A stretch of DNA of 64,000 bases from Candidatus Omnitrophota bacterium (lineage in GTDB: Bacteria; Omnitrophota; Omnitrophia; Omnitrophales; Aquincolibacteriaceae), in NCBI GenBank assembly GCA_043718225.1, contig JAYSWD010000001.1, positions 49,092 through 113,091 of the forward strand. Reading direction: 5' to 3'. Shown piece by piece: positions 5,818-41,132 of this stretch. The position numbers and the translations under genes were made by a program. A model generated the notes under the pieces. That model saw nothing but the letters and a program-made list of their open reading frames with translations, was not told where the DNA came from and searched no databases. The first letter of the stretch is position 1, and each line of letters begins with the position of its first letter.

Positions 5818-6731
5818 TGCTGATCGGCGAAGCTTTATCTCTAGGAGAAAACCGGCTGAAACTTGCTGGCGTCCTTGAGGCTAGGACTGAATGCGAGCAT
5901 ATGTTGATGGAGCTGATGAACGCGAATCGTTCAGAAGTGCTGTTTTATATTAGCTCTGAGCAAAGCTCAACCGCGCCGTTTCATTTTGCCTCTGAGCCTT
6001 CGGCTCAAACGGCGAAGAGCAATTTGACGGCGCAGCAAGAGAAACAGTTTTTTGATTGGATTGCGAGCAGGGGAAAAAGAATTCCTTTGGCGTATTTGCT
6101 GGGCGATACGTTTTTTCATTCTTTGAAATTAAAAGTGGGACCGGGATGTTTGATTCCGCGGCCTGAAACAGAACGGTTGGTGGAAGCGGCGCTTAAGATT
6201 ATCCGCGAAGATAAATTGAATGCCCCGGTAATCATGGATATTGGAACGGGATCGGGCGCGATTGCGCTTGCGATTTTAGCCGCCGTGCCTGAGGCTAAAG
6301 CGGTGATGGTTGACTTTTCTGCGGAAGCTTTGAAGATTGCCCGTGAGAATACTGCGGAACTTGGATTTTTAGGCCGCGCTGAGTTAATTCACTCAGATTT
6401 ATATTTAAATATACCGTCTGATTTGAAAGTTAATTTGATTTTGTCGAATCCGCCCTATTTAACGGCCGAAGATTTGGCCGGCCTGCAGCCGGAAGTGGTT
6501 TTTGAGCCGCGAATGGCATTAGACGGCGGGAAAGACGGCTTGGATTTTTACCGGAAAATGATTCCGGATGCCGCAAAGTTTTTAAAGCCGCAAGGCTGGT
6601 TGGGATTTGAAGTCGGCGCCGGACAGGCCCAGGCAGTTAGCGCAGAGTTAAAGAGAAACGGTTATGAAGATCTGAGAATTATTAAAGATCATCAAGATAT
6701 AGAGCGCATAGTTTTAGCCCGAAAAGGTTGA
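5817..6731 (+). CDS. prmC: release factor glutamine N5-methyltransferase PrmC/HemK, carrying an in-frame ~20 aa insertion made of two Family A repeat copies
   Basis: NPPY motif (LSNPPYL), the SAM-binding MDIGTGSGAIA, and PLAYLLG..LIPRPETE. It aligns collinearly with E. coli PrmC except for the insertion SSTAPFHFASEPSAQTAKSN. Confidence 0.85.
   Translation: MLIGEALSLGENRLKLAGVLEARTECEHMLMELMNANRSEVLFYISSEQSSTAPFHFASEPSAQTAKSNLTAQQEKQFFDWIASRGKRIPLAYLLGDTFFHSLKLKVGPGCLIPRPETERLVEAALKIIREDKLNAPVIMDIGTGSGAIALAILAAVPEAKAVMVDFSAEALKIARENTAELGFLGRAELIHSDLYLNIPSDLKVNLILSNPPYLTAEDLAGLQPEVVFEPRMALDGGKDGLDFYRKMIPDAAKFLKPQGWLGFEVGAGQAQAVSAELKRNGYEDLRIIKDHQDIERIVLARKG
5943..5964 (+). repeat. Family A repeat, in-frame inside prmC
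   Basis: gctctgagcaaagctcaaccgc. Confidence 0.8.
5979..6004 (+). repeat. Family A repeat, in-frame inside prmC
   Basis: cctctgagccttcggctcaaacggcg. Confidence 0.75.
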
Positions 6732-6777
6732 AATGCATCGCCGGTCGGGCGTAAGCCCGGAGGCTTAAAAGATACCG

Positions 6778-8043: not shown

Positions 8044-8067
8044 ACGCGAAGCGTTTTCTTTTACTCG

Positions 8068-8091
8068 GCTCTGCGCTTTTGGCGTAACCGC
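8068..8091 (+). repeat. Family A repeat
   Basis: gctctgcgcttttggcgtaaccgc. Confidence 0.75.
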
Positions 8092-8150
8092 GCAAAACTA
8101 GCAAATTGTAGATTAGTAGTTAGTAAGTAGTAATAAAGGGAGAAAAGAAA

Positions 8151-8408
8151 ATGGCAGTAAGAATTCGTATGAAGCGTTTTGGCGCGAAGAACCGTCCGCA
8201 ATGGCGCATTGTTGTCGCGGACGCAAAGTCACCGCGTGACGGCCGTTTCATCGAGGAAATCGGTTTTTATGACGCTCTTCCGAAAGAGGAAAAGTTTGTC
8301 TTGAAACAGGATCGTCTCGATCATTGGACCAAGGCCGGTGCTCAAGTTAGCATTTCGGTGAAAAGTCTGATTAAGAAGCAGCAGCGCAAGACCAAAGCGA
8401 AGGCGTAA
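8151..8408 (+). CDS. rpsP: 30S ribosomal protein S16
   Basis: MAVRIRMKRFGAKNRPQWRIVVAD signature. An RBS GGGAG lies upstream. Confidence 0.9.
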   Translation: MAVRIRMKRFGAKNRPQWRIVVADAKSPRDGRFIEEIGFYDALPKEEKFVLKQDRLDHWTKAGAQVSISVKSLIKKQQRKTKAKA

Positions 8409-8420
8409 CAGTTTTCTTTC

Positions 8421-8442
8421 GCTCTGGGCTTTGCCCAACCGC
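8421..8442 (+). repeat. Family A repeat
   Basis: gctctgggctttgcccaaccgc. Confidence 0.8.
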
Positions 8443-8475
8443 GACGCGGTTGTGGTGTATCCGCAGAGCAGCAAT

Positions 8476-9237
8476 ATGTTAGAAATTGATATCGTCACGT
8501 TGTTTCCGGATTTTTTCGAATCTCCGTTGAAACAGTCGCTTTTGAAGCGCGCGCAGGCCGACGGATTGATTAAAATCCGCGTGCATAATCTGCGCGATTG
8601 GGCGCGCGATAAGCATCACAAAACGGATGATTCGCCTTTTGGCGGCGGCCCCGGAATGGTGTTTAAGATCGAGCCAATGCATGAGTGCTTGAAAGAAATC
8701 GGTGCGGGAGCATGGAAAATTTTGCTCGATGCGCATGGCGAATTGCTGAAGCCAAAGTTGGCTGAAAGCCTCGCGCAGAAAAAGAAAATTGTTTTGATCG
8801 CGGGCCATTACGAAGGTATGGACTACCGCATTAAAGAACACCTGGTCGACCAAATGGTTTCGGTCGGTGACTTTATTACGATGGGCGGCGAAGCCCCGGC
8901 CTTGTGTTTGATTGAAGCGCTGACAAGGTTTGTTCCGGACGTGCTCGGAAACGAAGAATCGACGGCAGAAGAGAGTTTTAGCGGCGGGATGCTTGAATAT
9001 CCGCAGTATACGCGGCCGCGCGAATATAACGGTTGGGAAGTTCCCGAAGTTTTGTTTTCGGGAAATCATGCGAAGATAAAAAAGTGGCGTAATGAGACGG
9101 CGGAGAAATTGACGCGGAAGCACAGACCAGACTTACTACATTCTGCTTCTGCGCTGCCGGCGCAACCAGCGGATGAAGAGGGCAACAAAACCGTGAAGGT
9201 TAAGCTGAAAAGAGAAAGAGCTTCGAAAAAGAAATAA
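8476..9237 (+). CDS. trmD: tRNA (guanine37-N1)-methyltransferase
   Basis: SPOUT TrmD motifs (IVTLFPDFF, SPFGGGPGMV, LIAGHYEGMDYR). I chose the ATG at 8476 (MLEIDIV); the upstream in-frame stretch is Family A repeat sequence. The C-terminal tail contains a Family A copy in-frame. Confidence 0.85.
   Translation: MLEIDIVTLFPDFFESPLKQSLLKRAQADGLIKIRVHNLRDWARDKHHKTDDSPFGGGPGMVFKIEPMHECLKEIGAGAWKILLDAHGELLKPKLAESLAQKKKIVLIAGHYEGMDYRIKEHLVDQMVSVGDFITMGGEAPALCLIEALTRFVPDVLGNEESTAEESFSGGMLEYPQYTRPREYNGWEVPEVLFSGNHAKIKKWRNETAEKLTRKHRPDLLHSASALPAQPADEEGNKTVKVKLKRERASKKK
9147..9170 (+). repeat. Family A variant, in-frame in the trmD 3' end
   Basis: cttctgcgctgccggcgcaaccagc. Confidence 0.6.
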
Positions 9238-9250
9238 TAGTATTGTTTGG

Positions 9251-9275
9251 CCTTTGAGACGCTGTCTCAACCGGC
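9251..9275 (+). repeat. Family A-like variant
   Basis: ctttgagacgctgtctcaaccggca. Confidence 0.45.
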
Positions 9276-9313
9276 ATGCAGAGCAAAAATTTAAAGAAAT
9301 AATAATAGGAAAA

Positions 9314-9336
9314 TGCGGTTGGGCGAAAGCCCAGAG
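9314..9336 (-). repeat. Family A repeat, reverse orientation
   Basis: gcggttgggcgaaagcccagagc. Confidence 0.8.
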
Positions 9337-9354
9337 CAAAAAGGAGACAGGAAA

Positions 9355-9669
9355 ATGAATGTAATTCAAAAAATCGACGCAAAAACAAAAGCAAGCCGTC
9401 AAATCCCCGAGTTTCGCGTGGGCGACACTTTAAAAGTTCACTTGAAAGTGAAAGAGGGCAGCAAGACTCGCACGCAGATTTTCGAAGGCGTTTGTCTTCG
9501 CCGCCGCGGATCCGGTGCCGGAGCCAGCTTCGGTGTCATCAAGGATTCCCACGGCGACAAAGTGGAAAAGACTTTCCCGCTTTATACGCCCTCGATTGAA
9601 AAAATCGAAGTGACACGCACGGGTTCAGCCCGCCGCGCCAAGCTTTATTATTTGCGCGACCTGAAATAA
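9355..9669 (+). CDS. rplS: 50S ribosomal protein L19
   Basis: MNVIQKID...RVGDTLKVH signature with an RBS AAGGAGA upstream. The longer ORF start at 9313 would read through a reverse-oriented Family A repeat. Confidence 0.9.
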
Positions 9670-9690
9670 GAGCCAAGAGACTTCCTTTTT

Positions 9691-9713
9691 GCTCTGGGCT
9701 TTTGCCCAACCGC
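9691..9713 (+). repeat. Family A repeat
   Basis: gctctgggcttttgcccaaccgc. Confidence 0.8.
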
Positions 9714-9764
9714 ATGAGCTGAGCATGAGCAACTGCGGATCATTGGAAATGCTCGGATTAAGTT

Positions 9765-10508
9765 ATGGCCACAGTAGGGTCTTCCGAAACTCAAATTGAG
9801 TTATTTGATTTTGACAGGAAGGCCATTCTTTCCGGTGGTCAGGCCGAAGGCGATACTGTCGGTCGCTGGGCCGGAGTCGATGAGGCCGGCCGAGGACCGC
9901 TCGCGGGTCCTGTGGTTGCCGCCGCGGTCATTCTGATCTTTCCCGAAGGCCTTGAAGGCTTAAATGACTCCAAGAAGCTCACCGCTAAAAAACGAAAAAT
10001 GCTTTACAGCGAAATTATTTCGCGCCAGTTGGTGGGAATCGGCTTCGCCGACGAAAAAGAAATCGACACGATTAATATTCTGCGAGCGTCATTACTTGCC
10101 ATGAAGCGCGCCGTGCTTGATCTTTGCATTTCTCCGACCGGCCTTTTAATTGACGGAACTTATTCCACGGATTTACCTCTTCCGCAAAAAACAGTGATCG
10201 AAGGCGACGCCAAATCCGCGAGTATCGCCGCCGCCTCGGTCGTTGCGAAAGTCGTGCGGGACGCGTGGATGGAAAAATGTGATATCGAATATCCGCTTTA
10301 TGGTTTCGGGAAACACAAGGGCTATGGAACTAAGATTCATATGGATGCGCTAACGGAACATGGGCCATGCGCGATTCACCGCCGTAGCTTTGAGCCGGTG
10401 CGACGGCTACATTTAAGCTCTGAGCCAAGGCTCAACCGCACGGAAAATCCCAGCTCTGGAATTTTGCCCCTGTCTGCCGGCAGGCAGGCAACCACGCACA
10501 TGCCATGA
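9765..10508 (+). CDS. rnhB: ribonuclease HII with a ~35 aa C-terminal tail encoded by repeat elements
   Basis: AGVDEAGRGPLAGPVV and HRRSFEPV motifs. The tail after ..PVRRLHL is encoded by Family A copies plus a CTGCCGGCAGG palindrome. The start is uncertain, since an internal Met is possible. Confidence 0.8.
   Translation: MATVGSSETQIELFDFDRKAILSGGQAEGDTVGRWAGVDEAGRGPLAGPVVAAAVILIFPEGLEGLNDSKKLTAKKRKMLYSEIISRQLVGIGFADEKEIDTINILRASLLAMKRAVLDLCISPTGLLIDGTYSTDLPLPQKTVIEGDAKSASIAAASVVAKVVRDAWMEKCDIEYPLYGFGKHKGYGTKIHMDALTEHGPCAIHRRSFEPVRRLHLSSEPRLNRTENPSSGILPLSAGRQATTHMP
10417..10439 (+). repeat. Family A repeat, in the rnhB C-terminal tail
   Basis: gctctgagccaaggctcaaccgc. Confidence 0.8.
10469..10488. 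repeat. Family E GC palindrome (CTGYCYGCCGGCRGGCAGG)
   Basis: cctgtctgccggcaggcagg, in the rnhB tail, where it encodes ..AGRQA.. Confidence 0.55.
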
Positions 10509-10891
10509 AAATCAAACCGGTAGAGGCGGACTTTCATTTGTCGCTTGGAGACCGCGGTGAAATTATTGCCGCGGCATATCTGGTTGAAAGAGGATATAAG
10601 ATCCTGGAAAAAAAGGCGCGGACTCCTTACGGCGAACTGGACCTTATTGTGCGCACAAAGGACGCCGTGGTCTTTGTTGAGGTCAAAACAAGAAGCTCCC
10701 GGCAATTTGGCTTGCCCGAAGAAGCGGTTGAGGCTCAAAAGCAAAAGCAAATGATCCGGCTCGCGAATGGATACCTTCAAAAGAACGGCCTTTCCAAAAT
10801 GAAGGCGCGCTTTGATGTGATGTCTATACTTTATAATGGTGTCAATGAACCGCAAATCCGACACATTCAAAACGCTTTTGACGCGCAATAA
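10505..10891 (+). CDS. YraN-family (UPF0102) predicted endonuclease
   Basis: DLIVRTKDAVVFVEVKTRSS core typical of UPF0102. Its start overlaps the rnhB stop (ATGA). Confidence 0.75.
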   Translation: MKIKPVEADFHLSLGDRGEIIAAAYLVERGYKILEKKARTPYGELDLIVRTKDAVVFVEVKTRSSRQFGLPEEAVEAQKQKQMIRLANGYLQKNGLSKMKARFDVMSILYNGVNEPQIRHIQNAFDAQ

Positions 10892-10994
10892 CCTCTCAAG
10901 CGCTTAAAGGAGATGCCGATAGAAATATGCGCTGAATATGAGCAATTGCTTGAATGCGGCCTTTATTGTTCTTATAATCTGCGCCCAAGGAATT

Positions 10995-12320
10995 ATGTTT
11001 AATAAAATAAAACGTCAAAACACAGTTTGGGGAGCCGCCCTATTGGCCGTGCTTATTTTGCAGGCGGCACCGGCTTTTTCAGCCGCTCCCGACAAATATG
11101 CCCCGGTTTATGAAAAGCCGCTGAAGTCCTCGGCTTTGAAAGACCCGCTTTCTTATATTCTCGCGTTTCCTTTCGAACTCATCCGCTGGCCGATGAGCAA
11201 AAACCTTCTTTTCGTTGAGCAGCAGCATCTCGACCAAAAATTTAAATGGCTTTATACCTATCTCAAGAATCACGGTATTACGCCTTCTTTCGGTTATTCC
11301 GGAGGAACGGGATTTGAAACGGGATTGAAACTCGACCTTCCGCGGCTCACCGACTTAAAAACAAAATATCCTGATTTTATTTGGGATACGTGGATTAATT
11401 ACGGTCACGATGTTTATTTTCAAACCGGAACCGAAGTAGGCCTGGAGAAAATCGCCGGAACCGATTTTTTTGCTTCGGGCCTGGTTCAATATGAAAAACG
11501 TTTTCAGGAAGATTTTTACGGTATCGGTCCCGACACCAGCAAAGGTGAGGGAGTTTCCTACGAAATTGAAACGACAACTGTAGCCGGAAAAGCCGGATAT
11601 GAATTTTCGCCGAGTCTCAAGGCCATGACGCATATTAAGTACAGAAACATTAATGTCGGCGAAAGCGACGATGAAGGCAAAGGGCAGCTTGCCCAGTATG
11701 CCCCGGCTCGCCTGAATGGGTTTTCGGGCGACAGAATTTTGACCCTGGCGGGCGAGATCAAGCACGACACACGCGATTTTATTGACGCTCCGACCAAGGG
11801 CGGTTACCGGCAACTGTTTTTCGGCTATAACGAAGGGTTCGGAGATTCGCAGGCGCGCTATTTGACTTATCGCGCGGATATCGCGCAGTATCTAAAAGTG
11901 GGATCTGATCGCCGCATTCTCGCTTTGCGCGGATTAATGCAAATGCAGGATGAGTTTAACGGCGGTTATGTTCCTTTTTACGATTTATCTAAATTGGGCG
12001 GCTATGGAACGATGCCCCAGGTCAGCGAAACGTTGCGCAGTTACGGTGCCAACCGTTTTACCGGAAACAACCTTTTGCTTTTCAATATCGAATACCGTTT
12101 TGCGATTTGGGAGTATAAGGAATTACAGCTCGACGCCGTTCCGTTCTTGGATATCGGGCAGGTTTTCGGCGAGTGGAGCCGCTTCCAAATGAAGGATTTT
12201 AATGAGTCGTATGGTTTGGAATTCCGTGTCTATGTTGCGAGAACAGGCCTTTTAAATATTTCTGTCGCTCACGGCGACGAAGGCACGAACTTTTTTGTCC
12301 GCACCAAGAGAGCTTTTTAA
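10995..12320 (+). CDS. Omp85/surface-antigen-family outer membrane beta-barrel protein without POTRA repeats
   Basis: A signal peptide after the Met at 10995 (MFNKIKRQ..AAPAFSA), alternating beta-strand patterning, a C-terminal barrel signature and a terminal Phe (..FFVRTKRAF). Confidence 0.55.
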   Translation: MFNKIKRQNTVWGAALLAVLILQAAPAFSAAPDKYAPVYEKPLKSSALKDPLSYILAFPFELIRWPMSKNLLFVEQQHLDQKFKWLYTYLKNHGITPSFGYSGGTGFETGLKLDLPRLTDLKTKYPDFIWDTWINYGHDVYFQTGTEVGLEKIAGTDFFASGLVQYEKRFQEDFYGIGPDTSKGEGVSYEIETTTVAGKAGYEFSPSLKAMTHIKYRNINVGESDDEGKGQLAQYAPARLNGFSGDRILTLAGEIKHDTRDFIDAPTKGGYRQLFFGYNEGFGDSQARYLTYRADIAQYLKVGSDRRILALRGLMQMQDEFNGGYVPFYDLSKLGGYGTMPQVSETLRSYGANRFTGNNLLLFNIEYRFAIWEYKELQLDAVPFLDIGQVFGEWSRFQMKDFNESYGLEFRVYVARTGLLNISVAHGDEGTNFFVRTKRAF

Positions 12321-12321
12321 A

Positions 12322-13893: not shown

Positions 13894-13903
13894 GATCTCT
13901 CTA

Positions 13904-13925
13904 CTCTGAGCCTCAGCTCAACCGC
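13904..13925 (+). repeat. Family A repeat
   Basis: actctgagcctcagctcaaccgc. Confidence 0.8.
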
Positions 13926-13953
13926 AAAGTCTCATTCTAATATATAATTTGGC

Positions 13954-14979
13954 ATGACGAACTTTTCTGAAACAGTTAATTTAGCGGTAAAAAATTTACG
14001 TGATATTCTCACGTTGTCTTTTGATCACTCGGAAAATAAAGACGCGATTGTTGTCTTTGATAAAAACTGCGATTTGGCGAATTTGCTCACCGAAGCTTAC
14101 CGGCGTGTTTTGCCTCGGGCGCGGTTTATTGATTTTGAGACCATCAAACCCGAAGAAGCGTTGGCGCTTTTCGAAGTCCTCAAGCCGGGCGGCCTGGCAG
14201 TTTTAATTCAATCCACCAGCTTCCGTCTAAGTGCTTTTCGAATACGTATTGAGCTTTTCAATCTCTCGATTAAAGTGATTGAGCATCCGCATTTGAATAC
14301 CATGGAAGGCGACCAGATGCGCGTGTATGTCGATGCGCTGGCTTATGACGCGCCTTATTTCCGGAATACCGGCAATGCGCTGCGCACTCTGATTAACGGA
14401 GCTTCTTCGGGAGTTGTCGACAGCGGCGGCGATAAACTGGTTTTTGCCGCGGGTTTCGAGCCCGCAAAAATGAATGTCGGAGATTATTCAAGCATGAAAA
14501 ACATCGGCGGCCAATTTCCCATTGGCGAAGTTTTTACCGAATCAAAAAAACTGGAAGACGTCAACGGCCGCGTGCGCATTTTCGCTTTCGGCGATACGGG
14601 ATTCGTGGTGAACAAGCCGGAAAAACCGATCACACTTGTGATCGAAAATGGGCGCGTTACGGATGCGCTTGATTCGACGCCTGAATTTAATGAAGTGCTC
14701 GCGAATATTGTCGCGGATGAAAACGACGTTTGGGTGCGGGAATTGGGCTTTGGCTTAAACCGCGCATTTTCGCGCGACCGTATTGTAAGCGACATCGGAA
14801 GCTACGAGCGCATGTGCGGCGTCCATCTTTCGCTGGGCGCGAAACATTCTGTCTATGCTAAGCCCGACTTTGCTTTTTCACGCCGCACCGCACGGCATCA
14901 TGTCGATGTTTTTGCCGTAACGGAAGCGGTCATGCTTGATGAGAGGGTGATCTATAAGGACGGCGCTTGGTGTGTTTAA
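13954..14979 (+). CDS. hypothetical protein, possibly an aminopeptidase-like (M29-like) fold
   Basis: A long, well-supported ORF. The similarity to thermophilic aminopeptidases is weak and from memory only. Confidence 0.4.
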   Translation: MTNFSETVNLAVKNLRDILTLSFDHSENKDAIVVFDKNCDLANLLTEAYRRVLPRARFIDFETIKPEEALALFEVLKPGGLAVLIQSTSFRLSAFRIRIELFNLSIKVIEHPHLNTMEGDQMRVYVDALAYDAPYFRNTGNALRTLINGASSGVVDSGGDKLVFAAGFEPAKMNVGDYSSMKNIGGQFPIGEVFTESKKLEDVNGRVRIFAFGDTGFVVNKPEKPITLVIENGRVTDALDSTPEFNEVLANIVADENDVWVRELGFGLNRAFSRDRIVSDIGSYERMCGVHLSLGAKHSVYAKPDFAFSRRTARHHVDVFAVTEAVMLDERVIYKDGAWCV

Positions 14980-19679: not shown

Positions 19680-21311
19680 ATGTCGTCAAAAAAAACTGCC
19701 AACCCACTGAAAAAAAATTCCGCGAAACTTTCGCGAGTTAAACGCGCGCTTATCTCTGTCTCGGATAAGGAGGGCTTAATTCCTTTCGCGAAAAATCTGC
19801 GCCGTTTCAAAGTCGAAATTATTTCCACAGGCGGCACACTCAAAGCCTTGAAAGAAGCCGGGATTCCCGCAATCGCGATTGACCAAGTTACCGGCTTTCC
19901 TGAAATGATGGACGGTCGCGTCAAAACTTTGCATCCCAAAATTCACGGCGGTCTTTTATATGTGCGCGGCAACAAGTCGCATGAAAAACAAGCCAAAGCC
20001 CACGGCATTACCGCGATTGATTTAGTGGTGGTGAATCTTTATCCGTTTGAAGCTGTTACTCAGGACCCGAACGTGGAGCTCGCGCATGCAATTGAGAATA
20101 TTGATATTGGCGGACCTTCCATGCTGCGTTCAGCCGCCAAAAATTTTAAATCAGTTACGGTCGTTACGGATCCAAATGACTATCACCGCGTACTGCTTGA
20201 GATGGACACTTATAAAGGCGCAACTTCATATGATTTGCGTTTCGAACTTGCGCGCAAAGTTTACGCACGTACATCCGCTTATGATGCGGCCATTGCGGCA
20301 CATTTGAATGCGGAAGTTTCTTCCAAAGAAGAAGTGCTGCCCGCATCGATTGTAGTAGGCCTAAAAAAAACTCAGGAATTACGCTACGGAGAAAACCCAC
20401 ATCAGCGTGCGGCATATTATTCAGTTTCCGGTTGCGCCGGAGGCGCAGAGGGAAAAAACAAGTTGGCATGGAAACAGCTGCACGGCAAAGAACTTTCTTA
20501 TAATAATTTGGTGGATATGGAAGCGGCGATCGAATGCTCCGCCGAATTTAAAGAACCCTCGATTTGCGTGATTAAACATACCAACCCATGCGGCCTGGCG
20601 CAAAATAAAAATCTCGTTCAGGCTGTGGATGAGGCGATTGATTCAGACCCCGTTTCCGCATTTGGCGGCATCGTTGGCATTAATCGCATTTGCACCGAAG
20701 AAGTCGCACAGCGGATTTTAGACCGCCTCGGTTTTTTTGAAATTATCGTTGCGCCCGGCTACAAACCGAAAGCGCTTGCAAAACTTCAGGCGCGTAAAAA
20801 TTTGCGCATTATGGAAGTTGCTGGGCTTGATAATCAATCCGGTTTTGAAATTAAATTGCTGCGCACAGGCGCATTGGTTCAGGAGAAGAATCATCCGATC
20901 CGTTTCCGGCTTGCGGAGTTCAAGAAAAACCTGAAATGGGTTACGAAACATAAACTCACTAAAGATAAATTGGATGAACTGGTTTTTGCCTATCAATGCG
21001 CGAAACTTGTGAAATCAAACGCGATTGTTTTGACACAAGGTTTTAAAACCGTCGGTGTGGGTGCGGGTCAAATGTCGCGGGTCGACTCGACAAAAATCGC
21101 CTGTGATAAAGCCGGCGCGAAAACACGCGGCGCTTTCGTCGGCAGTGATGCATTCTTTCCGATGCCTGACTCAATCGAATATGCCGCAAAGTTCGGCATT
21201 GAAGCTATCATCCAGCCGGGTGGATCGATCAAAGATCAAGATGCGATTGATACTTGCAATAAACTGGGAATAGCCATGGTCTTCACTGGCGAACGACACT
21301 TCAAACATTAA
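19680..21311 (+). CDS. purH: bifunctional AICAR transformylase / IMP cyclohydrolase
   Basis: MGS-like N-terminus (KRALISVSDKEGL) and AICARFT domain, 543 aa. Confidence 0.9.
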   Translation: MSSKKTANPLKKNSAKLSRVKRALISVSDKEGLIPFAKNLRRFKVEIISTGGTLKALKEAGIPAIAIDQVTGFPEMMDGRVKTLHPKIHGGLLYVRGNKSHEKQAKAHGITAIDLVVVNLYPFEAVTQDPNVELAHAIENIDIGGPSMLRSAAKNFKSVTVVTDPNDYHRVLLEMDTYKGATSYDLRFELARKVYARTSAYDAAIAAHLNAEVSSKEEVLPASIVVGLKKTQELRYGENPHQRAAYYSVSGCAGGAEGKNKLAWKQLHGKELSYNNLVDMEAAIECSAEFKEPSICVIKHTNPCGLAQNKNLVQAVDEAIDSDPVSAFGGIVGINRICTEEVAQRILDRLGFFEIIVAPGYKPKALAKLQARKNLRIMEVAGLDNQSGFEIKLLRTGALVQEKNHPIRFRLAEFKKNLKWVTKHKLTKDKLDELVFAYQCAKLVKSNAIVLTQGFKTVGVGAGQMSRVDSTKIACDKAGAKTRGAFVGSDAFFPMPDSIEYAAKFGIEAIIQPGGSIKDQDAIDTCNKLGIAMVFTGERHFKH

Positions 21312-30672: not shown

Positions 30673-32436
30673 GCAGCCAAAGAATCTCCCAAACCCTCAG
30701 GTTATCTTGTTTTCGCGCGTAAATACCGCCCTCAGACTTTTGACGAAGTCGTCGGGCAGCAATCCACGCTGACAACGCTTAAAAACGCGCTGGCTTCGGG
30801 ACGTATCCCGCAAAGTTTTATTTTCTCAGGTTCCCGCGGCGTCGGAAAGACATCCGTCGCGCGTATTCTCGCGAAAGCTTTGAACGCGTCCGGCGGAGCA
30901 AACCCCGATTTTGACCGTAAAGACGCGGCTGCCCGTGAAATTGAAGAAGGCCGCTCCATGGATGTGCTTGAAATTGACGGCGCATCCAATCGCGGCATCG
31001 AAGAAATCCGTTCCTTGCGCGAAACCGTTAAATTCAAACCCGCATCCGGCGCGTATAAAATTTATATTATCGATGAAGTCCATATGCTCACAACCGAAGC
31101 GTTCAATGCTTTGCTCAAAACGCTTGAAGAGCCGCCACCGCATGTAAAATTTATTTTCGCGACAACTGAAATTCACAAAGTGCCGCTGACGATTCTTTCG
31201 CGCTGTCAGCGTTTTCATTTTCGCCGGCTCACCGCGGATGAAATTGTTGAGAAACTGGTCGATATCGCGAAAATTGAAAAAATCAAATGCGACAAAGACG
31301 CACTTTATTTAATCGCGCGCGCGAGTGACGGAGCGCTGCGTGACGCTGAAAGCCTGCTGGATCAAATTTCCAGTTTTTCCGACGGTGAAATTAAAGAAGA
31401 ATCCGTTCTGACATTGCTCGGAATTGCCTCCGACAAAATCAATGAAACTCTGATCGAAGCGGTGAAGGCGCGCAGCGGCCAGGATATTTTGGCCGTGATT
31501 CAATCTTTTTATGAAAGTGGCGGCGACTTGCTTCAGCTTTCGCGCGGATTTTTTGAAATTTTAAGGCATTTGCTTGTGCTGCAGCATGTCAAAGACACAC
31601 AGGGTTTAATCGAAGCGGGACCCGCGATGCTTGAAATGTTGAAAAAACATAAAGCCTCTTTTAGCGAAGCCGAAATTTTACTCGGCCTTGCCATCTTCCA
31701 AAACCTGCAGGCTGATTTGCGCCGGCCCGTAACCGCGCCGCGCTTCATGGTTGAAGCCGCTTTTTTAAAATTGATTTATGCCGACGGCATGCGTTCCGTA
31801 AACGAACTGATTTCTAATTTCTCCCTGCCTGCCGCCCGGCCGGTGAGCGAGCCGCAACCGGCAATACCAAAACGAAATATTTCTTCTGCTCCGGCTCAGC
31901 AAAACGTTCCACAGCCGCCGATTAAATCTCAGTCTGTCGCTCCGGTAAAACCTTCAACATACAATGAACCCAAAGCGCAGATCCAACCTAGGGTTGGTGG
32001 CTCGGGAACAGAGACGCTGGTTGCGCCTTTGGCGCAGAAGCAAAATGAAATAGCAATTGAACAGGTTAAGACGGCTTGGCCGAACGTGATTGAATCCGTC
32101 AAACAAAAGCGCATGTCCACCGGCATTTTTCTTTCCGAGGCCGAACCTGTCGAAGTAGATGACACTGTGATTATTTTAGGGCTTCCCGAAGAGTTTAAAT
32201 TTCATAAGGAGAGCCTTGAAAAAGATAACAATAAAAAACTGGTCGAAGATTGTTTTTCAGAAAGTATCGGAACCAAAGTCCGCGTGCGTTTTGTCGTGAC
32301 ACAGCAAGCTGCCGTCGAAAGACCGGCACCCCGGCCCGTGACGCTTCCTTCGGAGTCCGAAAAACGGGAGCTGCCAGATATTATTACGAAAGCGCTGGAT
32401 GTTTTTGACGGCGCTAAAATCGTTCGTGCTGAATAA
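30661..32436 (+). CDS. dnaX: DNA polymerase III subunit gamma/tau
   Basis: AAA+ clamp-loader motifs (GSRGVGKTS, DEVHMLT, SRCQRF). The start may be the second ATG at 30670. Confidence 0.9.
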   Translation: MTPMAAKESPKPSGYLVFARKYRPQTFDEVVGQQSTLTTLKNALASGRIPQSFIFSGSRGVGKTSVARILAKALNASGGANPDFDRKDAAAREIEEGRSMDVLEIDGASNRGIEEIRSLRETVKFKPASGAYKIYIIDEVHMLTTEAFNALLKTLEEPPPHVKFIFATTEIHKVPLTILSRCQRFHFRRLTADEIVEKLVDIAKIEKIKCDKDALYLIARASDGALRDAESLLDQISSFSDGEIKEESVLTLLGIASDKINETLIEAVKARSGQDILAVIQSFYESGGDLLQLSRGFFEILRHLLVLQHVKDTQGLIEAGPAMLEMLKKHKASFSEAEILLGLAIFQNLQADLRRPVTAPRFMVEAAFLKLIYADGMRSVNELISNFSLPAARPVSEPQPAIPKRNISSAPAQQNVPQPPIKSQSVAPVKPSTYNEPKAQIQPRVGGSGTETLVAPLAQKQNEIAIEQVKTAWPNVIESVKQKRMSTGIFLSEAEPVEVDDTVIILGLPEEFKFHKESLEKDNNKKLVEDCFSESIGTKVRVRFVVTQQAAVERPAPRPVTLPSESEKRELPDIITKALDVFDGAKIVRAE

Positions 32437-35320: not shown

Positions 35321-36586
35321 ATGTCGCAGGAGCTTTTGTCATCGTTGGAATATATCGAAAAAGAAAAGGGCGTTTCGCGCGAAGTCCTTTTTGACGCGAT
35401 TCGTCACGCCTTAATTTCCGCTTTACGTAAATCTTTTCCACAGTACGGCGAAGATTTTGACGTGCAAATCGATCCTCAAACGATGCGCATTCAATTATTG
35501 CGCGCCGGAAAACCTTTTCAAGATCCGCATTTCGGGCGCATCGCCGCACAAACCGCGAAGCAGGTCATCATTCAGAAAATCCGCGAAGCACAGCGGGATT
35601 CTATTTTTGATGAATTTACCGCGAAGCAAGGCGATATCGTGAACGGTACCGTTCATCGCGTGGACGCGCGCGCCATTGTTGTGGACTTCGGAAAAACTGA
35701 AGGAATTCTGCCTGCCCGTGAAATGTCCCCGGCGGATCAATACCGCCAAGGCAATGTCATCCGCGCTTTTGTGCTCGAAGTGAATCGTACGCCGCGCGGC
35801 CCGGAAATCATTCTTTCTCGCACGCATCCTGATTTCGTAAAAAAACTTTTTGAGCTCGAAGTTCCCGAAATCGCGGACAAACTTGTTTTGATTAAGGGCG
35901 TCGCGCGTGAGGCGGGCTCGCGCAGCAAGGTCGCCGTTGTTTCTTCGGATCCCAAAATCGACTGCGTTGGTTCCTGTGTGGGCGTACGCGGGCAGCGCGT
36001 GAAGAATATCGTGCGCGAACTGGAAGGCGAAAAAATTGATATTGTTCCGTACTCCGAAAAAATCGAAGAATTTATTAAAAGCGCGATGTCGCCGGCGGAA
36101 ATTTTTGAAATGAAACTTGACCGTCAGCGGCTAGTTGCCGACTTGCTTGTTAAAGATGACCAGCTTTCGCTGGCGATTGGAAAGCGGGGACAAAATGTGC
36201 GCCTTGCTTCCAAACTTGTGGGATGGACGATTGATGTTCGCAGCGAAGGCCAGCGCGCGGCTCTGGACGTGCTGCCCGGAATTGATGCCGCGGTGATTCA
36301 AACATTGAAGGCCGGCGGAATTTTATCTATCAAAGATGTTTTGAAGTCATCTCCCGAACAGCTGTCGCAGATTGCCGGGCTCGACTTGGCAACCGCGCAA
36401 AAAATTTTACAAGCCGCGGAAGCAACCAAGGCCGTAAAAGTTGAACCGGAAAAAGAAATACCAGTCGCAACTGAAAATATTGATGCGGTATCCGAAAATG
36501 AAAGTCCCGCTGTGGACAGTCAGCCCGAAGCAGAGAAGCCGTCTCATTCTTCCTCTGAGCCCTTGGCTCAACCGGATAAGGACTAA
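35321..36586 (+). CDS. nusA: transcription termination/antitermination factor NusA, C-terminal tail ending in a Family A repeat
   Basis: NusA N-terminal, S1 and two KH domains. The tail ..SSEPLAQPDKD is encoded by the CTCTGAGC..GCTCAACCGG element. Confidence 0.9.
   Translation: MSQELLSSLEYIEKEKGVSREVLFDAIRHALISALRKSFPQYGEDFDVQIDPQTMRIQLLRAGKPFQDPHFGRIAAQTAKQVIIQKIREAQRDSIFDEFTAKQGDIVNGTVHRVDARAIVVDFGKTEGILPAREMSPADQYRQGNVIRAFVLEVNRTPRGPEIILSRTHPDFVKKLFELEVPEIADKLVLIKGVAREAGSRSKVAVVSSDPKIDCVGSCVGVRGQRVKNIVRELEGEKIDIVPYSEKIEEFIKSAMSPAEIFEMKLDRQRLVADLLVKDDQLSLAIGKRGQNVRLASKLVGWTIDVRSEGQRAALDVLPGIDAAVIQTLKAGGILSIKDVLKSSPEQLSQIAGLDLATAQKILQAAEATKAVKVEPEKEIPVATENIDAVSENESPAVDSQPEAEKPSHSSSEPLAQPDKD
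36553..36576 (+). repeat. Family A repeat, in the nusA C-terminal tail
   Basis: cctctgagcccttggctcaaccgg. Confidence 0.75.
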
Positions 36587-36591: not shown

Positions 36592-38856
36592 ATGCGCGTT
36601 CATGAGCTTGCGAAGCAAATTGATAAAACGAGCAAAGAGATTATCGCTGAATTTGAAAAAATCGGCGTTTCCTTAAAGAGCCATATGTCTGTTATTCCCG
36701 ACGGAGCACTGCATCAATTAGCCTCTGCGTCTGCGACGAAACCGGCGGCAACAGCACCACAGTCCGTTCCAAAAAATGAAGAAGCAAAACAAAAAACAGC
36801 AGCCGGTAAAGCTTCTGCCCCCGCGCCAAAAGCGCAGCCGGCAGCAGCCAAACAAAAAGAAACCCCTAAAAAAGAAATCGCGCCCGCTCCGACGGTTGCC
36901 GCTCCTGTTGTTAAAAAAGAAGAGATAAAGCCCGTGGCGGAAGTAAAAGCGCCTGCGCCCGCAGCCGCTTCCATTGCCGCAGCCGTGCCGAAAGCAGCGT
37001 CTGCGCCGGCACCTGTTCCGTCTCGCTCTGCCTCTGGGCCTGCAGCCCAACCGACAAAAACGCCATATGAACGGCCGCGCGTGGAAGAAGTTCTGCCTCA
37101 AAAAGTGACATTGGCATTCCCGATTACGGTCGGAAATTTTTCTCAAGCCACTGGCCGCAAGGTCGCGGAAATTATTAAAACTCTGATGAAAATCGGCGTT
37201 ATGGCAAATGTGAACCAGCTCCTCAACGAAGAAATCGGAATGGGGCTCGCTTCCGCGTTAAGCATTGAAATTGAAAAAGAACAGGATGAAATCGAAGCTT
37301 TGCTGCGTGACTCGGCTCAGAGCGAAGACCCTACAAAATTAAAATTCCGTCCTCCCGTTGTAACAATGATGGGCCATGTTGATCACGGCAAAACATCACT
37401 TTTAGATGCGATCCGCAAAACGAGCGTCGCTTCCCGTGAAAAAGGATTTATTACGCAGCATATCGGCGCTTATGGCGTAGATGTTCCGGGCAAAGGGCAT
37501 GTGACTTTTCTTGATACACCGGGCCACGAAGCTTTTACCGCCATGCGTGCGCGCGGCGCGAACGTGACGGACATTGTGGTGCTTGTGGTTGCGGCGGATG
37601 ACGGCATTATGCCCCAAACAGTGGAGGCGATCGCGCATGCGCGCGAAGCCGGTTGTCCTATTATCGTCGCGATCAATAAAATTGATTTACCCGCGTCGAA
37701 TCTTGAAAAAGTAATGGGCGGCTTACAGAAAGCTGATTTAACTCCCGAAGAATGGGGCGGAAAAACGATTTGCGTGAAAGTCTCCGCGAAAACCGGTGCC
37801 GGAATCGACGAGCTTTTGGATATGCTTTTGCTGCAAGCGGAAGTTTTGGAATTAAAAGCTAACCCCGACCGTTTTGCAGTGGGAACTATTATTGAAGGCC
37901 ACTTGTCAAAAGGCAGCGGCCCCGCGGCAACCGTGATCGTTCAGAACGGAACTTTGAAAACAGGCGATATTATCGTCGCAGGCCCGAACATGGGCCGCGT
38001 ACGCGCGCTGCGTGATGATTTGGGTAAACATATGAAAGAAGCGGGACCGTCTTATGCCGCGGAAGTCATGGGGCTTGACGGCGTACCCGCCGCGGGCGAA
38101 ATTTTTCACGTTGCGCCGGATGAAAAAATCGCGCGCCGTTTCGCGGAAAAGAAAAGACTCGAATTGCGCGAAAAAGAGATGCATTCGGCCAGCAAACATA
38201 TGTCGCTTGAAAGTGTTTACGAAAAAATTTCCGAAGGTAATTTTAAAGAACTTAAATTAATTGTTAAAGCGGACGTGCAGGGTTCGATCGAAGCTTTGCG
38301 CGACGCTCTCGAGCGCCTTTCAACCGAAATGTGCCGTGTCCATATTATTCACAGCGTTGCCGGCGGCATCAATGAATCCGACGTCATGCTTGCGGCGGCG
38401 AGTGACGCCATCATTATCGGTTTTCATGTGCGCGCGGACGCGAAAGCCAAAGTGCTTGCGGACCGCGAAGGCGTGGATTTACGCTATTATGGAATTATTT
38501 ATGAAGCCGTAGAGAACGTAAAAATGGCCATGGAAGGAATTCTATCACCGACGCTTACGGAAAAAATAGTCGGGACGATTGAAGTTCGCCAGATTTTCAA
38601 ATCTTCAAAAGTAGGCACAATCGGCGGCGCTAAAGTTAAAAAAGGCACGGTCACACGCTCCAATCAAATCCGCGTACTGCGCGACAATGTGGTGTTGTTT
38701 GAAGGTAAGCTGGCATCGCTTAAGCGTTTCAAGGATGACGTTCGTGAGGTCAAAGAAGGCTTCGAATGCGGCGTTGCGGTGGAAGGCTTTAATGATTTGC
38801 AGCCCGGAGATCTTATAGAAGCTTTCCATATTGAAAAAACTGCGACCAAACTTTAA
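36592..38856 (+). CDS. infB: translation initiation factor IF-2
   Basis: Ala/Pro-rich N-terminal region, a G-domain (GHVDHGKTSLLD, DTPGHEAF, NKID) and C-terminal domains. Confidence 0.9.
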   Translation: MRVHELAKQIDKTSKEIIAEFEKIGVSLKSHMSVIPDGALHQLASASATKPAATAPQSVPKNEEAKQKTAAGKASAPAPKAQPAAAKQKETPKKEIAPAPTVAAPVVKKEEIKPVAEVKAPAPAAASIAAAVPKAASAPAPVPSRSASGPAAQPTKTPYERPRVEEVLPQKVTLAFPITVGNFSQATGRKVAEIIKTLMKIGVMANVNQLLNEEIGMGLASALSIEIEKEQDEIEALLRDSAQSEDPTKLKFRPPVVTMMGHVDHGKTSLLDAIRKTSVASREKGFITQHIGAYGVDVPGKGHVTFLDTPGHEAFTAMRARGANVTDIVVLVVAADDGIMPQTVEAIAHAREAGCPIIVAINKIDLPASNLEKVMGGLQKADLTPEEWGGKTICVKVSAKTGAGIDELLDMLLLQAEVLELKANPDRFAVGTIIEGHLSKGSGPAATVIVQNGTLKTGDIIVAGPNMGRVRALRDDLGKHMKEAGPSYAAEVMGLDGVPAAGEIFHVAPDEKIARRFAEKKRLELREKEMHSASKHMSLESVYEKISEGNFKELKLIVKADVQGSIEALRDALERLSTEMCRVHIIHSVAGGINESDVMLAAASDAIIIGFHVRADAKAKVLADREGVDLRYYGIIYEAVENVKMAMEGILSPTLTEKIVGTIEVRQIFKSSKVGTIGGAKVKKGTVTRSNQIRVLRDNVVLFEGKLASLKRFKDDVREVKEGFECGVAVEGFNDLQPGDLIEAFHIEKTATKL

Positions 38857-40142: not shown

Positions 40143-41132
40143 ATGCGGATTTTTAAGGTAACGGCGTCATTTAAAAAAATTACCAAACGGCCGCTTGTTC
40201 TTGCGCTCGGAAATTTTGACGGTATTCACCGGGGGCATCAAAAGCTTTTAGATTATGTTGTCAGCCAGGCAAAGAAACTGCATGGTTGCGCGGCAGTGTT
40301 TACTTTTCAAGAGCATCCGCAAGCGATTTTGCATCCGGAACATGCGCCCGAAAGCCTGCAAGCGCTTGAGCAAAAACTGGCGCTTTTCCGAGCGCGCGGA
40401 ATCGAGATTTCTTTTTTACAGAATTTTGATTCGCGTTTTTCGATGCTTTCGGCGGAAGAGTTTGTAAAAAAAATTCTTGTTAAGCAGCTTGGCATTCGCG
40501 AGATTTGCCTCGGTTATAACGCGCGTTTTGGCCGCGGGCGGGAAGGCGATGCAGATCTTCTCCGTAAGCTGGGCAAAGAATGCGGTTTTAAGGTTTTTCA
40601 GGCGCGGCCTGTCGCTTGGCGGGGAGTGCCGGTTTCAAGTACGGCGGTCAGAAAAGCCGTACATGCGGGGAAAATGAACCTCGCGGCGCAATTATTGGGG
40701 CGGCCGTGGAGCGTAGCGGGTATCATCAAGCGCGGAAGTGCGCGCGGGGAAAAACTGGGGTTTGCTACGGCGAACATGGATTTAAATAAATATGCACGCC
40801 CGGCTTTTGGAGTTTATGCCGTCCATGTGCTGCTACATAATATTGCCTCTGCGCCTAAGGCGCAACCGGCGCAGCGTCGTTCAGCCTCTGGGCTCACCCA
40901 ACCGGCATTTTGCAACGGTGTGGCGAATTTTGGATTGAGGCCTACTTTTGGAGGAACGGTAAAGCCTGTTTTGGAAACCCATCTTTTTAATTTTAAGAAA
41001 AACATTTACGGAAAAAAAATAGAAGTATTTTTTGTGAAGCGCCTGAGAAATGAAAAAAAATTTACCTCCAAAGAAGAGCTCGCGAAACAAATTCAAAAAG
41101 ATATTCGTGCCGCGAAGGTCGCGTTGAAATAA
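40143..41132 (+). CDS. ribF: bifunctional riboflavin kinase / FMN adenylyltransferase, with a ~20 aa in-frame insertion made of two Family A repeats
   Basis: N-terminal FMNAT (GNFDGIHRGHQ) and C-terminal riboflavin kinase (GVYAV..GVANFGLRPTF). The insertion ASAPKAQPAQRRSASGLTQPA sits in a loop that is absent from E. coli RibF. Confidence 0.85.
   Translation: MRIFKVTASFKKITKRPLVLALGNFDGIHRGHQKLLDYVVSQAKKLHGCAAVFTFQEHPQAILHPEHAPESLQALEQKLALFRARGIEISFLQNFDSRFSMLSAEEFVKKILVKQLGIREICLGYNARFGRGREGDADLLRKLGKECGFKVFQARPVAWRGVPVSSTAVRKAVHAGKMNLAAQLLGRPWSVAGIIKRGSARGEKLGFATANMDLNKYARPAFGVYAVHVLLHNIASAPKAQPAQRRSASGLTQPAFCNGVANFGLRPTFGGTVKPVLETHLFNFKKNIYGKKIEVFFVKRLRNEKKFTSKEELAKQIQKDIRAAKVALK
40846..40870 (+). 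repeat. Family A repeat, in-frame inside ribF
   Basis: gcctctgcgcctaaggcgcaaccggc. Confidence 0.75.
40884..40906 (+). repeat. Family A repeat, in-frame inside ribF
   Basis: gcctctgggctcacccaaccggc. Confidence 0.75.

What the first reader, a model, noticed from the sequence alone, without database searches (positions are those of the whole stretch)
10410..10508. RNase HII and NusA (and probably TrmD) carry C-terminal tails written by repeat elements
After the conserved RNase HII end (HRRSFEPVRRL), the frame continues ~35 codons through a Family A copy, a partial copy and a CTGCCGGCAGG palindrome, then runs into the yraN ATG. NusA ends ..SSEPLAQPDKD on a Family A copy (36553-36576). The TrmD tail contains ..SALPAQP.. 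from a variant copy (9147-9170). The repeat insertions have displaced native stop codons and created low-complexity C-terminal extensions.
Basis: partly seen in the sequence, partly recalled or inferred. Interest (0 to 1): 0.6.

Follow-up and report, generated by a model that had tools for sequence, protein, structure and literature searches.

The report
Repeat hairpins translated into protein tails
A short hairpin DNA repeat that litters this Omnitrophota genome has landed inside at least eight housekeeping genes, where it is translated into floppy tails and loop inserts; this is a small-scale analogue of the palindromic elements known from Rickettsia.

Summary
After ...HRRSFEPVRRL, the rnhB frame stays open for 32 codons (10410-10505). 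It runs through a full Family A copy, a partial copy and a 20-nt palindrome, and stops on the TGA that overlaps the yraN ATG.

Family A is a real dispersed element: TCTG-NGC-loop-GCN-CAACC with a T-rich 5' flank. The window has 22 core matches against 0.02 in shuffles, and the two free stem bases are complementary in 22 of 22.

Close relatives show every state of the rnhB/yraN junction: empty, one copy read in either of two frames, copy plus palindrome, and this window's two copies. The RnhB tail is therefore an element-encoded passenger, and it is predicted to be disordered.

NusA and TrmD are only partly as claimed. Relatives without the repeat already have tails. The element supplies the last ~14 residues of NusA and ~8-10 residues inside the TrmD tail.

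The effect is not limited to C-termini. Copies also sit in frame inside PrmC, RibF, IF2, DnaX and PurH.

Native stop codons were not shown to be displaced. The closest known analogues are REP elements and Rickettsia palindromic elements, so I rate this a new member of a known kind. Orthologous coding copies keep their hairpin through compensatory changes, which leaves open a functional element.

The parts
9765..10508 (+). rnhB (RNase HII), 247 aa; residues 216-247 are the repeat-encoded tail
   Evidence: ORF. Pfam RNase_HII covers residues 36-211. In the AlphaFold model the 10-residue blocks from residue 221 on average pLDDT 46-51 and have no secondary structure.
10410..10505 (+). RnhB tail, 32 codons: HLSSEPRLNRTENPSSGILPLSAGRQATTHMP
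   Evidence: Absent or different in 29 close relatives.
10406..10445 (+). Full Family A copy (core TCTGAGCCAAGGCTCAACC, 10419-10437), read as S-E-P-R-L-N-R; belongs to a 36-nt segment with no counterpart in L003 (gap in the alignment)
   Evidence: Covariance model hit, 35.8 bits, E 4e-6. Junction alignment.
10452..10469 (+). Partial, degenerate Family A copy (AGCTCTGGAATTTTGCCC); I read it as the counterpart of the single copy at this junction in L003
10469..10493 (+). 20-nt palindrome CCTGTCTGCC/GGCAGGCAGG nested before the CAACC end of the second copy; also present in L003
   Evidence: Rare elsewhere in the window.
10505..10891 (+). yraN (UPF0102); its ATG overlaps the rnhB stop (ATGA)
8476..9237 (+). 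trmD; its tail ...HRPDLLHSASALPAQPADEEGNK... contains a copy
9148..9167 (+). Family A core inside the TrmD tail (TCTGCGCTGCCGGCGCAACC = S-A-L-P-A-Q-P)
   Evidence: Perfect core. L154 has a copy with a different but paired stem at the same place. Covariance-model score is weak, 10.7 bits.
35321..36586 (+). nusA; the last ~14 residues (PSHSSSEPLAQPDK) are element-encoded
36538..36580 (+). Extended 43-nt Family A copy at the nusA 3' end (core 36554-36573); shared with L071 and L155
   Evidence: family D3; 28.7 bits.
37017..37059 (+). Family A copy in the IF2 N-terminal linker (S-G-P-A-A-Q-P); a diverged second copy lies at 36724-36743
   Evidence: 23.3 bits. The matching copy in L155 has a compensatory stem change.
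40848..40905 (+). Two tandem Family A copies forming a 19-residue insert in the RibF riboflavin-kinase domain
   Evidence: (26.7 bits). In the model the insert is a loop with pLDDT below 50 between strands 223-231 and 255-264.
5955..6010 (+). Two Family A copies forming a 19-residue insert in the PrmC N-terminal domain
   Evidence: The insert is absent from PrmC of L003 and L005.
32019..32038 (-). Family A copy, minus orientation, in the DnaX linker (LVAPLAQK)
   Evidence: The window has 11 extra residues here relative to L071.
20430..20449 (-). Family A copy, minus orientation, in a variable PurH loop (SGCAGGAEG)
   Evidence: (25 bits). The loop is 4-5 residues longer than in solved PurH structures.
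8423..8440 (+). Typical intergenic copy, 14 nt after the rpsP stop
9317..9335 (-). Intergenic copy between trmD and rplS; L004 has a copy in the same spacer and orientation
9693..9711 (+). Intergenic copy 23 nt after the rplS stop, upstream of rnhB; L152, L154 and L004 have a copy in the same spacer

Best explanation
Family A is a short (about 25-43 nt) dispersed hairpin repeat of a narrow Omnitrophota lineage. Its form is 5'-(CGTNTCATTYTTGC)-TCTG-NGC(C)-loop-(G)GCN-CAACCGS. In the window it mostly sits in intergenic spacers, and about half of the intergenic copies lie 5-23 nt after a stop codon.

Some genes leave no spacer: rnhB and yraN overlap in ATGA, and nusA and infB are 5 nt apart. Some proteins have disordered tails, linkers or surface loops. 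In those places copies end up inside the ORF and are simply translated.

The RnhB tail is the extreme case. Two copies plus a nested palindrome lie upstream of a stop at the conserved position, which gives 32 extra residues predicted to be disordered. In NusA and TrmD the element contributes 8-14 residues to tails that already existed.

Shown: repeat identity, presence/absence polymorphism, use of different reading frames in relatives, and predicted disorder.

Inferred: the peptides are passengers without a protein-level function. Only tolerable frames and positions survive; in this window every plus-strand coding copy is read as TCT-GNG, giving S-x-P-x-A-Q-P-like peptides. The element spreads like a REP-type element, by a trans-acting enzyme or by recombination between copies.
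For: Real repeat with a paired stem:
- 22 core matches against 0.02 in shuffles; the free stem bases pair in 22 of 22.
- With only TCTG and CAACC fixed, 21 of 30 sites have a fully complementary 3-bp stem. Nine stem types occur across genomes.
- A model trained on intergenic copies recovers the coding copies.

Lineage-restricted:
- Hits occur in close relatives L004, L071, L151-L155.
- No hits in the roughly 36 more distant Omnitrophota loci searched in the same 418-kb call.

RnhB junction series:
- L152 and L004 are empty; L151, L153 and L154 have one copy; L005 has a degenerate copy; L003 has a copy plus the palindrome; the window has two copies plus the palindrome.
- Relatives translate the copy in two different frames, GSGPLPNR or ALGFRPTA. 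About half of 29 relatives have short tails without a repeat.

Internal inserts absent from orthologues:
- PrmC +19 aa, RibF +19 aa, DnaX +11 aa.

Predicted disorder: RnhB tail blocks average pLDDT 46-51; RibF insert below 50.

Frame: all 10 plus-strand coding copies in the window are read as TCT-GNG (plus reading).

Intergenic bias: 18 of about 30 copies lie in the ~10% of the window that is non-coding, and 9 of them lie 5-23 nt after a stop.
Against: - No transposase of the RAYT/IS200 type turned up among the 27 window ORFs scanned or in the gene tables of related loci. No target-site duplication could be defined. The mode of spread is therefore unproven.
- Orthologous coding copies keep the hairpin through compensatory changes, and the nusA 3' end is more conserved than the tail upstream of it. 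This suggests constraint on the element, so 'pure passenger' may be incomplete.
- The IF2 copy at 37033 is not a net insertion relative to L071.
- The PurH case rests on a borderline model score (E 1.2e-3) and distant comparators only.
- No protein-level data show that the tails are actually made or stable.
Confidence: 0.8

Rival explanations
1. Family A is a functional cis-element: an RNA or single-stranded-DNA hairpin bound by a specific protein, for example a marker of cistron ends for mRNA processing or stability. Selection maintains it even where it overlaps coding sequence, so the tails and inserts are forced dual-coding segments rather than selfish insertions.
For: - Orthologous coding copies differ by compensatory stem changes that alter amino acids but keep the pairing. 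nusA: AGCC/GGCT against AGTC/GACT. ribF: CGCC/GGCG against TGCC/GGCA. infB: GGC/GCC against CGC/GCG. trmD: CGC/GCG against AGG/CCT.
- The last ~50 nt of nusA are about 94% identical between the window and L071, while the tail upstream has diverged with indels.
- Copies occupy the same spacers (trmD-rplS, rplS-rnhB) in genomes whose RnhB is only 76-84% identical to the window's.
- Half of the intergenic copies lie 5-23 nt after a stop.
- The single-stranded flanks are invariant while the loops vary freely.
Against: - Presence/absence polymorphism at the same junction, and degenerate copies (L005, L154), show the element is dispensable there.
- About a quarter of the copies are in the opposite orientation.
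- The hairpin has only 5-6 bp, and no copy coincides with a terminator-like site.
- No Rfam family matches.
- Compensatory changes can also arise without selection, by quasi-palindrome template switching or by gene conversion between copies.
Confidence: 0.25
2. The tail arose by loss of the rnhB stop codon and read-through into a repeat that already lay in an intergenic spacer. This is the first reader's 'displaced stop' model, as opposed to insertion upstream of a retained stop.
For: - Family A copies typically sit a few nucleotides after stop codons, so one mutation could absorb them into an ORF.
- In L003 and L005 the rnhB frame runs 14 nt into yraN and ends ...YEN*, so a different stop is used there.
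Against: - The empty-site relatives L152 and L004 have no spacer at all: ATGA overlap in L152, TAG plus 1 nt in L004.
- The window, L151, L153 and L154 all terminate on a TGA in the same ATGA overlap with yraN as the empty-site L152.
Confidence: 0.12
3. The S-x-P-x-A-Q-P peptides are a selected protein motif, such as a docking or modification site added to several housekeeping proteins, and the DNA similarity is secondary.
For: - All 10 plus-strand coding copies in the window use the same frame.
- NusA, PrmC and IF2 share a 13-residue peptide pattern, P-[SF]-[HR]-[SF]-[SA]-S-[EG]-P-x-A-Q-[PT].
Against: - Relatives read the RnhB copy in a second frame (ALGFRPTA) or lack it entirely.
- The minus-orientation copies in PurH and DnaX encode unrelated peptides.
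- Orthologous copies change residues (P to S, A to T) while keeping the base pairing.
- Most copies are intergenic.
- The segments are predicted to be disordered.
Confidence: 0.03
4. Artefact: an assembly or frameshift error, or chance low-complexity similarity.
For: The source is a metagenome-assembled genome. Exact-sequence look-ups for RibF, PrmC and NusA found no record among the indexed assemblies.
Against: - The identical RnhB protein occurs in two independent Logan assemblies.
- An identical RibF is recorded from NCBI.
- Sister genomes carry copies at the same sites.
- Core statistics: 22 matches against 0.02 expected.
Confidence: 0.02

Closest known systems
Rickettsia palindromic elements (RPEs; Ogata et al. 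2000, as summarised in PMC10969869)
   Same: Both are dispersed palindromic repeats inserted in frame into many unrelated housekeeping genes, and both are translated into extra peptide segments. Here the segments fall in tails, linkers and surface loops without breaking the host fold. The frequency is high: 8 of about 58 ORFs in this window.
   Different: RPEs are about 100-150 bp and were reported as ten families in an alphaproteobacterial intracellular parasite (PMC10969869). Family A is 25-43 nt and encodes 7-14 residues. It has one simple 5-6 bp hairpin with invariant flanks, occurs in Omnitrophota, and is still predominantly intergenic. No sequence relationship to RPEs was tested or is expected.
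REP / REPIN elements mobilised by RAYT transposases (own knowledge: Nunvar et al. 2010; Bertels and Rainey 2011)
   Same: Family A is a 20-40 nt imperfect palindrome with conserved flanking bases. It has many dispersed copies, mostly just downstream of stop codons inside operons. Some copies form inverted doublets (45966+/46025-; L154 1120-/1157+). Both orientations occur.
   Different: There is no GTAG-type head. No RAYT gene was found in the DNA available. REPs are extragenic by definition, whereas about 40% of the Family A copies in this window are translated.
MITE/ERIC/BOX-type repeats that form ORF fusions (review PMC10969869)
   Same: These are non-autonomous repeats that occasionally create in-frame fusions with host ORFs.
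   Different: MITEs have terminal inverted repeats and target-site duplications and are usually longer than 100 bp. Neither feature is detectable here.
REP sequences close to stop codons that affect translation of the upstream gene (own knowledge: Liang, Rudd and Deutscher 2015, not re-read here)
   Same: A hairpin repeat sits within about 5-25 nt of stop codons.
   Different: Any effect on termination or tmRNA tagging is untested for Family A. In rnhB and nusA the hairpin lies upstream of the stop.

Membership tests
REP/RAYT system | Short (20-40 nt) imperfect palindrome, repeated and dispersed, mainly extragenic | tested here: met
   About 30 copies in 64 kb, 18 of them intergenic in the ~10% of the window that is non-coding. 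Genome-wide copy number could not be tested.
REP/RAYT system | Conserved GTAG-like head next to the hairpin | tested here: not met
   The conserved flanks are GCTC-TG... and ...CA-ACCGC. There is no GTAG.
REP/RAYT system | Cognate RAYT (Y1 transposase) gene, usually flanked by REPs | tested here: inconclusive
   No Y1_Tnp hit among the 27 window ORFs scanned. The ORF flanked by five copies (45424-45870) is a dUTPase. No such gene appears in the gene tables of related loci. The rest of the genome was not available.
REP/RAYT system | Inverted doublets (REPINs) | tested here: inconclusive
   Some inverted pairs exist (45966+/46025-, 57683+/57825-, L154 1120-/1157+), but most copies are single.
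Rickettsia palindromic elements | In-frame insertion into unrelated protein-coding genes, translated with the host protein | tested here: met
   PrmC, TrmD, RnhB, PurH, DnaX, NusA, IF2 and RibF carry copies. Inserts are absent from orthologues in PrmC, RibF and DnaX. Translation is inferred from the open frames only.
Rickettsia palindromic elements | Element of about 100-150 bp with sequence homology to an RPE family | tested here: not met
   Length was tested: Family A is 25-43 nt, against ~150 bp for RPEs (PMC10969869). Sequence homology to RPE families was not tested.
Rickettsia palindromic elements | Insertions fall in surface-exposed segments compatible with the host fold | tested here: met
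   The RibF insert is a loop with pLDDT below 50 between two strands. The RnhB tail is predicted to be disordered. The other copies lie in the DnaX and IF2 linkers and in NusA and TrmD tails that are compositionally biased and variable among relatives.
MITE | Terminal inverted repeats and target-site duplication | tested here: not met
   The only inverted repeat is the 5-6 bp hairpin. No duplication is visible at filled against empty rnhB junctions, though divergence limits this test.
Intrinsic terminator | GC-rich hairpin followed by a U-tract | tested here: not met
   The T-run precedes the hairpin. None of the 27 terminator-like sites in 3900-14100 coincides with a copy.
Known RNA family (Rfam 15) | Match to a curated covariance model | tested here: not met
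   Only two tRNAs pass the gathering thresholds in the window. Region 4100-10600 at E up to 1 gives two sub-threshold matches, far below gathering, only one of which (Thr_leader, 4622-4690) extends over part of a copy.

The most novel reading that the evidence does not exclude
The Family A hairpin is a functional, lineage-specific cis-element recognised as RNA or single-stranded DNA, for example as punctuation at cistron ends for mRNA processing. Selection on it would be strong enough to keep it by compensatory substitution even inside essential ORFs. NusA, IF2, RibF and TrmD would then carry truly dual-coding segments whose amino-acid sequence is dictated by nucleic-acid structure.
Probability: 0.22. 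Interest if true: 0.7.

Novelty: new member of a known kind. Interest (0 to 1): 0.45.

Why it matters
- Short REP-like hairpins, not only the long Rickettsia elements, can be written into the proteins of essential genes. Here the frequency is about 1 gene in 7 in this window, in a poorly studied phylum.
- For annotation: odd low-complexity tails and loop inserts in Omnitrophota proteins should be read as repeat passengers, not as new domains. Gene ends at ATGA overlaps are especially exposed.
- For evolution: the rnhB/yraN junction gives a stepwise series, from empty through one copy and nested palindrome to two copies, of how coding sequence is created from selfish or structural DNA.
- The compensatory changes in orthologous coding copies give a concrete test of whether nucleic-acid structure constrains protein sequence here.

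Tried and rejected
- My first regex inventory required stem complementarity, so it was circular for covariation. It also missed the TrmD copy through greedy matching. I replaced it with an unconstrained core search with shuffles and a flanks-only search.
- Covariance model R1 gives the TrmD copy only 10.7 bits and the first IF2 copy 8.4 bits. I kept these two copies on the basis of core and stem evidence and the presence of a copy at the same site in a sister genome, not on the model score.
- Rfam found nothing relevant, either at gathering thresholds on the whole window or at E up to 1 on 4100-10600.
- The RAYT/transposase hunt by Pfam on 27 ORFs found none. The ORF surrounded by five copies is a dUTPase.
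- The terminator scan found no overlap with any copy.
- The RNA fold of the tail region 10395-10520 is not more stable than shuffles (z = -1.5).
- The CTGCCGGCAGG palindrome is not a family of its own in the window. One other perfect site lies at 62929-62940.
- The literature search on REP and stop codons did not return the paper I had in mind, so that point rests on my own knowledge.
- I ran no further search on PurH or TrmD, because the verdict would not change.

Full report
**Context.** The window comes from an Omnitrophota genome. The closest RnhB relatives include Candidatus Omnitrophica UBA2337 and several proteins labelled Omnitrophota. A sister genome, GCA_043732705.1, is syntenic over 16 kb. 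The finding lies in the run murA-rpsP-trmD-rplS-rnhB-yraN, all on the + strand. The window has about 58 ORFs, 50 of them on the + strand, and is about 89% coding.

**1. The observation.**
- rnhB is 9765-10508 (247 aa), with Pfam RNase_HII over residues 36-211.
- After ...HRRSFEPVRRL the frame continues for 32 codons: HLSSEPRLNRTENPSSGILPLSAGRQATTHMP, 10410-10505.
- It ends on a TGA that overlaps the yraN ATG as ATGA.
- The tail DNA contains a full repeat copy (core 10419-10437), a partial copy (10452-10469), and the palindrome CCTGTCTGCC/GGCAGGCAGG (10469-10488) followed by CAACC.
- NusA ends ...PSHSSSEPLAQPDKD on a copy at 36554-36573.
- TrmD carries TCTGCGCTGCCGGCGCAACC at 9148-9167, read as SALPAQP.

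**2. Family A is a real structured repeat.**
- An alignment of 13 intergenic copies shows invariant GCTC-TG-N-GC ... GC-N-CA-ACCGC. The loop is free (3-5 nt) and the 5' flank is T-rich.
- My first inventory required pairing, so I repeated it without that constraint. The core TCTG-N-GC-N(2-7)-GC-N-CA[AG]CC occurs 22 times, against 0.02 in 200 dinucleotide shuffles. The two free N are complementary in 22 of 22: 9 A-T, 8 C-G and 5 G-C.
- With only TCTG and CAACC fixed, 21 of 30 sites have a perfect 3-bp stem. Across related genomes nine stem types occur, each with a perfect complement.
- A covariance model built only from intergenic copies finds 25 sites at E below 0.02. These include rnhB (35.8 bits), nusA (28.7), ribF (26.7), purH (25.0) and infB (23.3).
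- Three coding copies (NusA, PrmC, IF2) also share a longer 43-nt form at 70-81% identity (family D3).
- No Rfam family matches.
- The hairpins are not terminator-like, because the T-run precedes the stem.

**3. Distribution.**
- About 30 copies lie in the window.
- 18 are intergenic, and 9 of those lie 5-23 nt after the upstream stop.
- 12 are inside ORFs.
- Roughly a quarter are in minus orientation.
- The family occurs in close relatives: L154 has 10 model hits in 6.2 kb and L155 has 11 in 16.4 kb. L152, L151, L153, L004 and L071 also have hits.
- No hit fell in the more distant Omnitrophota loci included in the 418-kb search.
- In the trmD-rplS and rplS-rnhB spacers, related genomes also carry a copy.

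**4. RnhB tail.** The rnhB/yraN junction in eight genomes forms a series:

| Genome | State of the junction |
|---|---|
| L152, L004 | No repeat and no spacer: ATGA overlap (L152), or TAG plus 1 nt (L004) |
| L151, L153, L154 | One copy |
| L005 | One degenerate copy |
| L003 | One copy with the 20-nt palindrome nested before CAACC |
| Window | The L003 state plus a further 36-nt segment holding a complete copy |

- Among 29 relatives at 70-87% identity, the stretch after ...SF.PV has a median length of 12 residues and a maximum of 29. In the window it is 35.
- About 14 relatives have short tails with no repeat.
- Eight read the copy as G-S-G-P-L-P-N-R and four read it in another frame as A-L-G-F-R-P-T-A.
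- The DNA element is therefore the conserved entity, and the peptide is incidental.
- The AlphaFold model has a confident core and a tail whose blocks average pLDDT 46-51 with no secondary structure.
- The identical protein appears in two independent assemblies.
- The window, L151, L153 and L154 terminate on a TGA in the same ATGA overlap as the empty-site L152. I therefore infer insertion upstream of a retained stop, forced by the lack of any non-coding space, rather than displacement of the stop.

**5. NusA.**
- All 26 other relatives examined have a ~40-residue acidic tail after the HhH domain and no repeat. A typical ending is ...EKAPEAEKGQEEAGG.
- The window, L071 (85% identity) and L155 share ...PEAEKPSHSSSE[PS]L[AT]QP[DE]K[DE]. 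The 43-nt element replaces or extends only the last residues.
- This 3' segment is about 94% identical between the window and L071, while the tail upstream has diverged with indels.

**6. TrmD.**
- Relatives without the copy still have Lys-rich tails of 22-26 residues.
- The window and L154 have a copy right after HRPDLL: window stem CGC/GCG, L154 stem AGG/CCT.
- The 'probably TrmD' claim holds, but as an insert within a native tail.

**7. Beyond C-termini.**
- PrmC has a 19-residue insert made of two copies that is absent in L003 and L005.
- RibF has a 19-residue insert made of two tandem copies in a beta-hairpin loop of the kinase domain. Most relatives at 57-70% identity lack it, and the nearest relative has a shorter version. 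In the model the insert has pLDDT below 50.
- DnaX has a minus-strand copy in its linker, next to an 11-residue gap in L071.
- IF2 has one clear copy and one diverged copy in its N-terminal linker; L155 has three.
- PurH has a minus-strand copy in a variable loop that is 4-5 residues longer than in solved structures.
- All 10 plus-strand coding copies in the window are read as TCT-GNG.
- Of the other two frames, CTC-TGA is a stop when N is A. The remaining frame would give Leu/Arg-rich peptides. The frame bias is therefore plausibly a tolerance filter (inference).

**8. A sign of constraint.**
- Coding copies at matching sites in sister genomes differ by paired changes that alter the protein but keep the stem. 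nusA: AGCC/GGCT against AGTC/GACT, giving P to S and A to T. ribF: CGCC/GGCG against TGCC/GGCA. infB: GGC/GCC against CGC/GCG. trmD: as described in section 6.
- This could reflect selection on an RNA or single-stranded-DNA hairpin. It could also reflect quasi-palindrome correction or gene conversion between copies. I could not separate these possibilities.

**9. Comparison with known systems.**
- In behaviour this matches Rickettsia palindromic elements, which insert in frame into many unrelated genes (PMC10969869). In anatomy and position it matches REP elements.
- It is not a member of either family. It is several-fold shorter than RPEs and comes from a different phylum.
- It lacks the GTAG head of REPs, and no RAYT was found in the DNA available.
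- It lacks the inverted terminal repeats and target-site duplications of MITEs.

**Verdict.** This is a new member of a known kind, of moderate interest. One open question is worth testing: whether the hairpin is functional.

Noticed in passing
window 18562-18673, 21341-21433, 24106-24217, 24283-24330, 33139-33244, 34784-34895, 38864-38974, 48517-48564: A second dispersed repeat ('Family B'), about 110 nt, found on the + strand; the copies checked lie in spacers a few nucleotides after a stop codon. It has the form GAAAAA...long imperfect hairpin with apex GTATTACCGCATAC...TTTTTGA. RNAalifold on six copies predicts 41 pairs, 22 of them with compensatory changes. No Rfam match.
   Followed up: partly
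L072-L096 (RibF loop equivalent to window 40830-40910): The same RibF beta-hairpin loop carries long, unrelated Cys/Arg-rich inserts in more distant Omnitrophota, for example RCPLPVARCAKKW and RCALRVARCANQW. This suggests that other palindromic repeats have colonised the same loop in other lineages.
   Followed up: no
L004 1944-2021: A Family A copy between rplS and rnhB has a 41-nt insertion inside its loop. The L003 and window rnhB copies have a 20-nt palindrome nested before CAACC. Copies seem to be targets for further insertions.
   Followed up: no
window 45291-45409 and 45966-46044: Five Family A copies surround the dUTPase gene (45424-45870): three in tandem upstream, and an inverted pair downstream before ftsK. 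The sister genome L155 has no copy in the pnp-dut spacer.
   Followed up: partly
window 24412-26151 and 26185-27960: Two adjacent paralogous genes (579 and 591 aa) share segments at about 72-74% nucleotide identity with an offset of about 1785 nt (families D6, D7, D16, D18). They were not identified.
   Followed up: no
window 48841-49014: Two tandem 86-nt units at 74% identity lie in the spacer upstream of a response-regulator gene (family D13).
   Followed up: no
window 61069-61680: An ORF with a full-length match to the BamHI restriction endonuclease family (PF02923, E 1.7e-58).
   Followed up: no
window 8408-8476: rpsP is followed directly by trmD, 67 nt later, with no rimM between them. 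The same holds in relatives L003, L004, L005 and L152.
   Followed up: no
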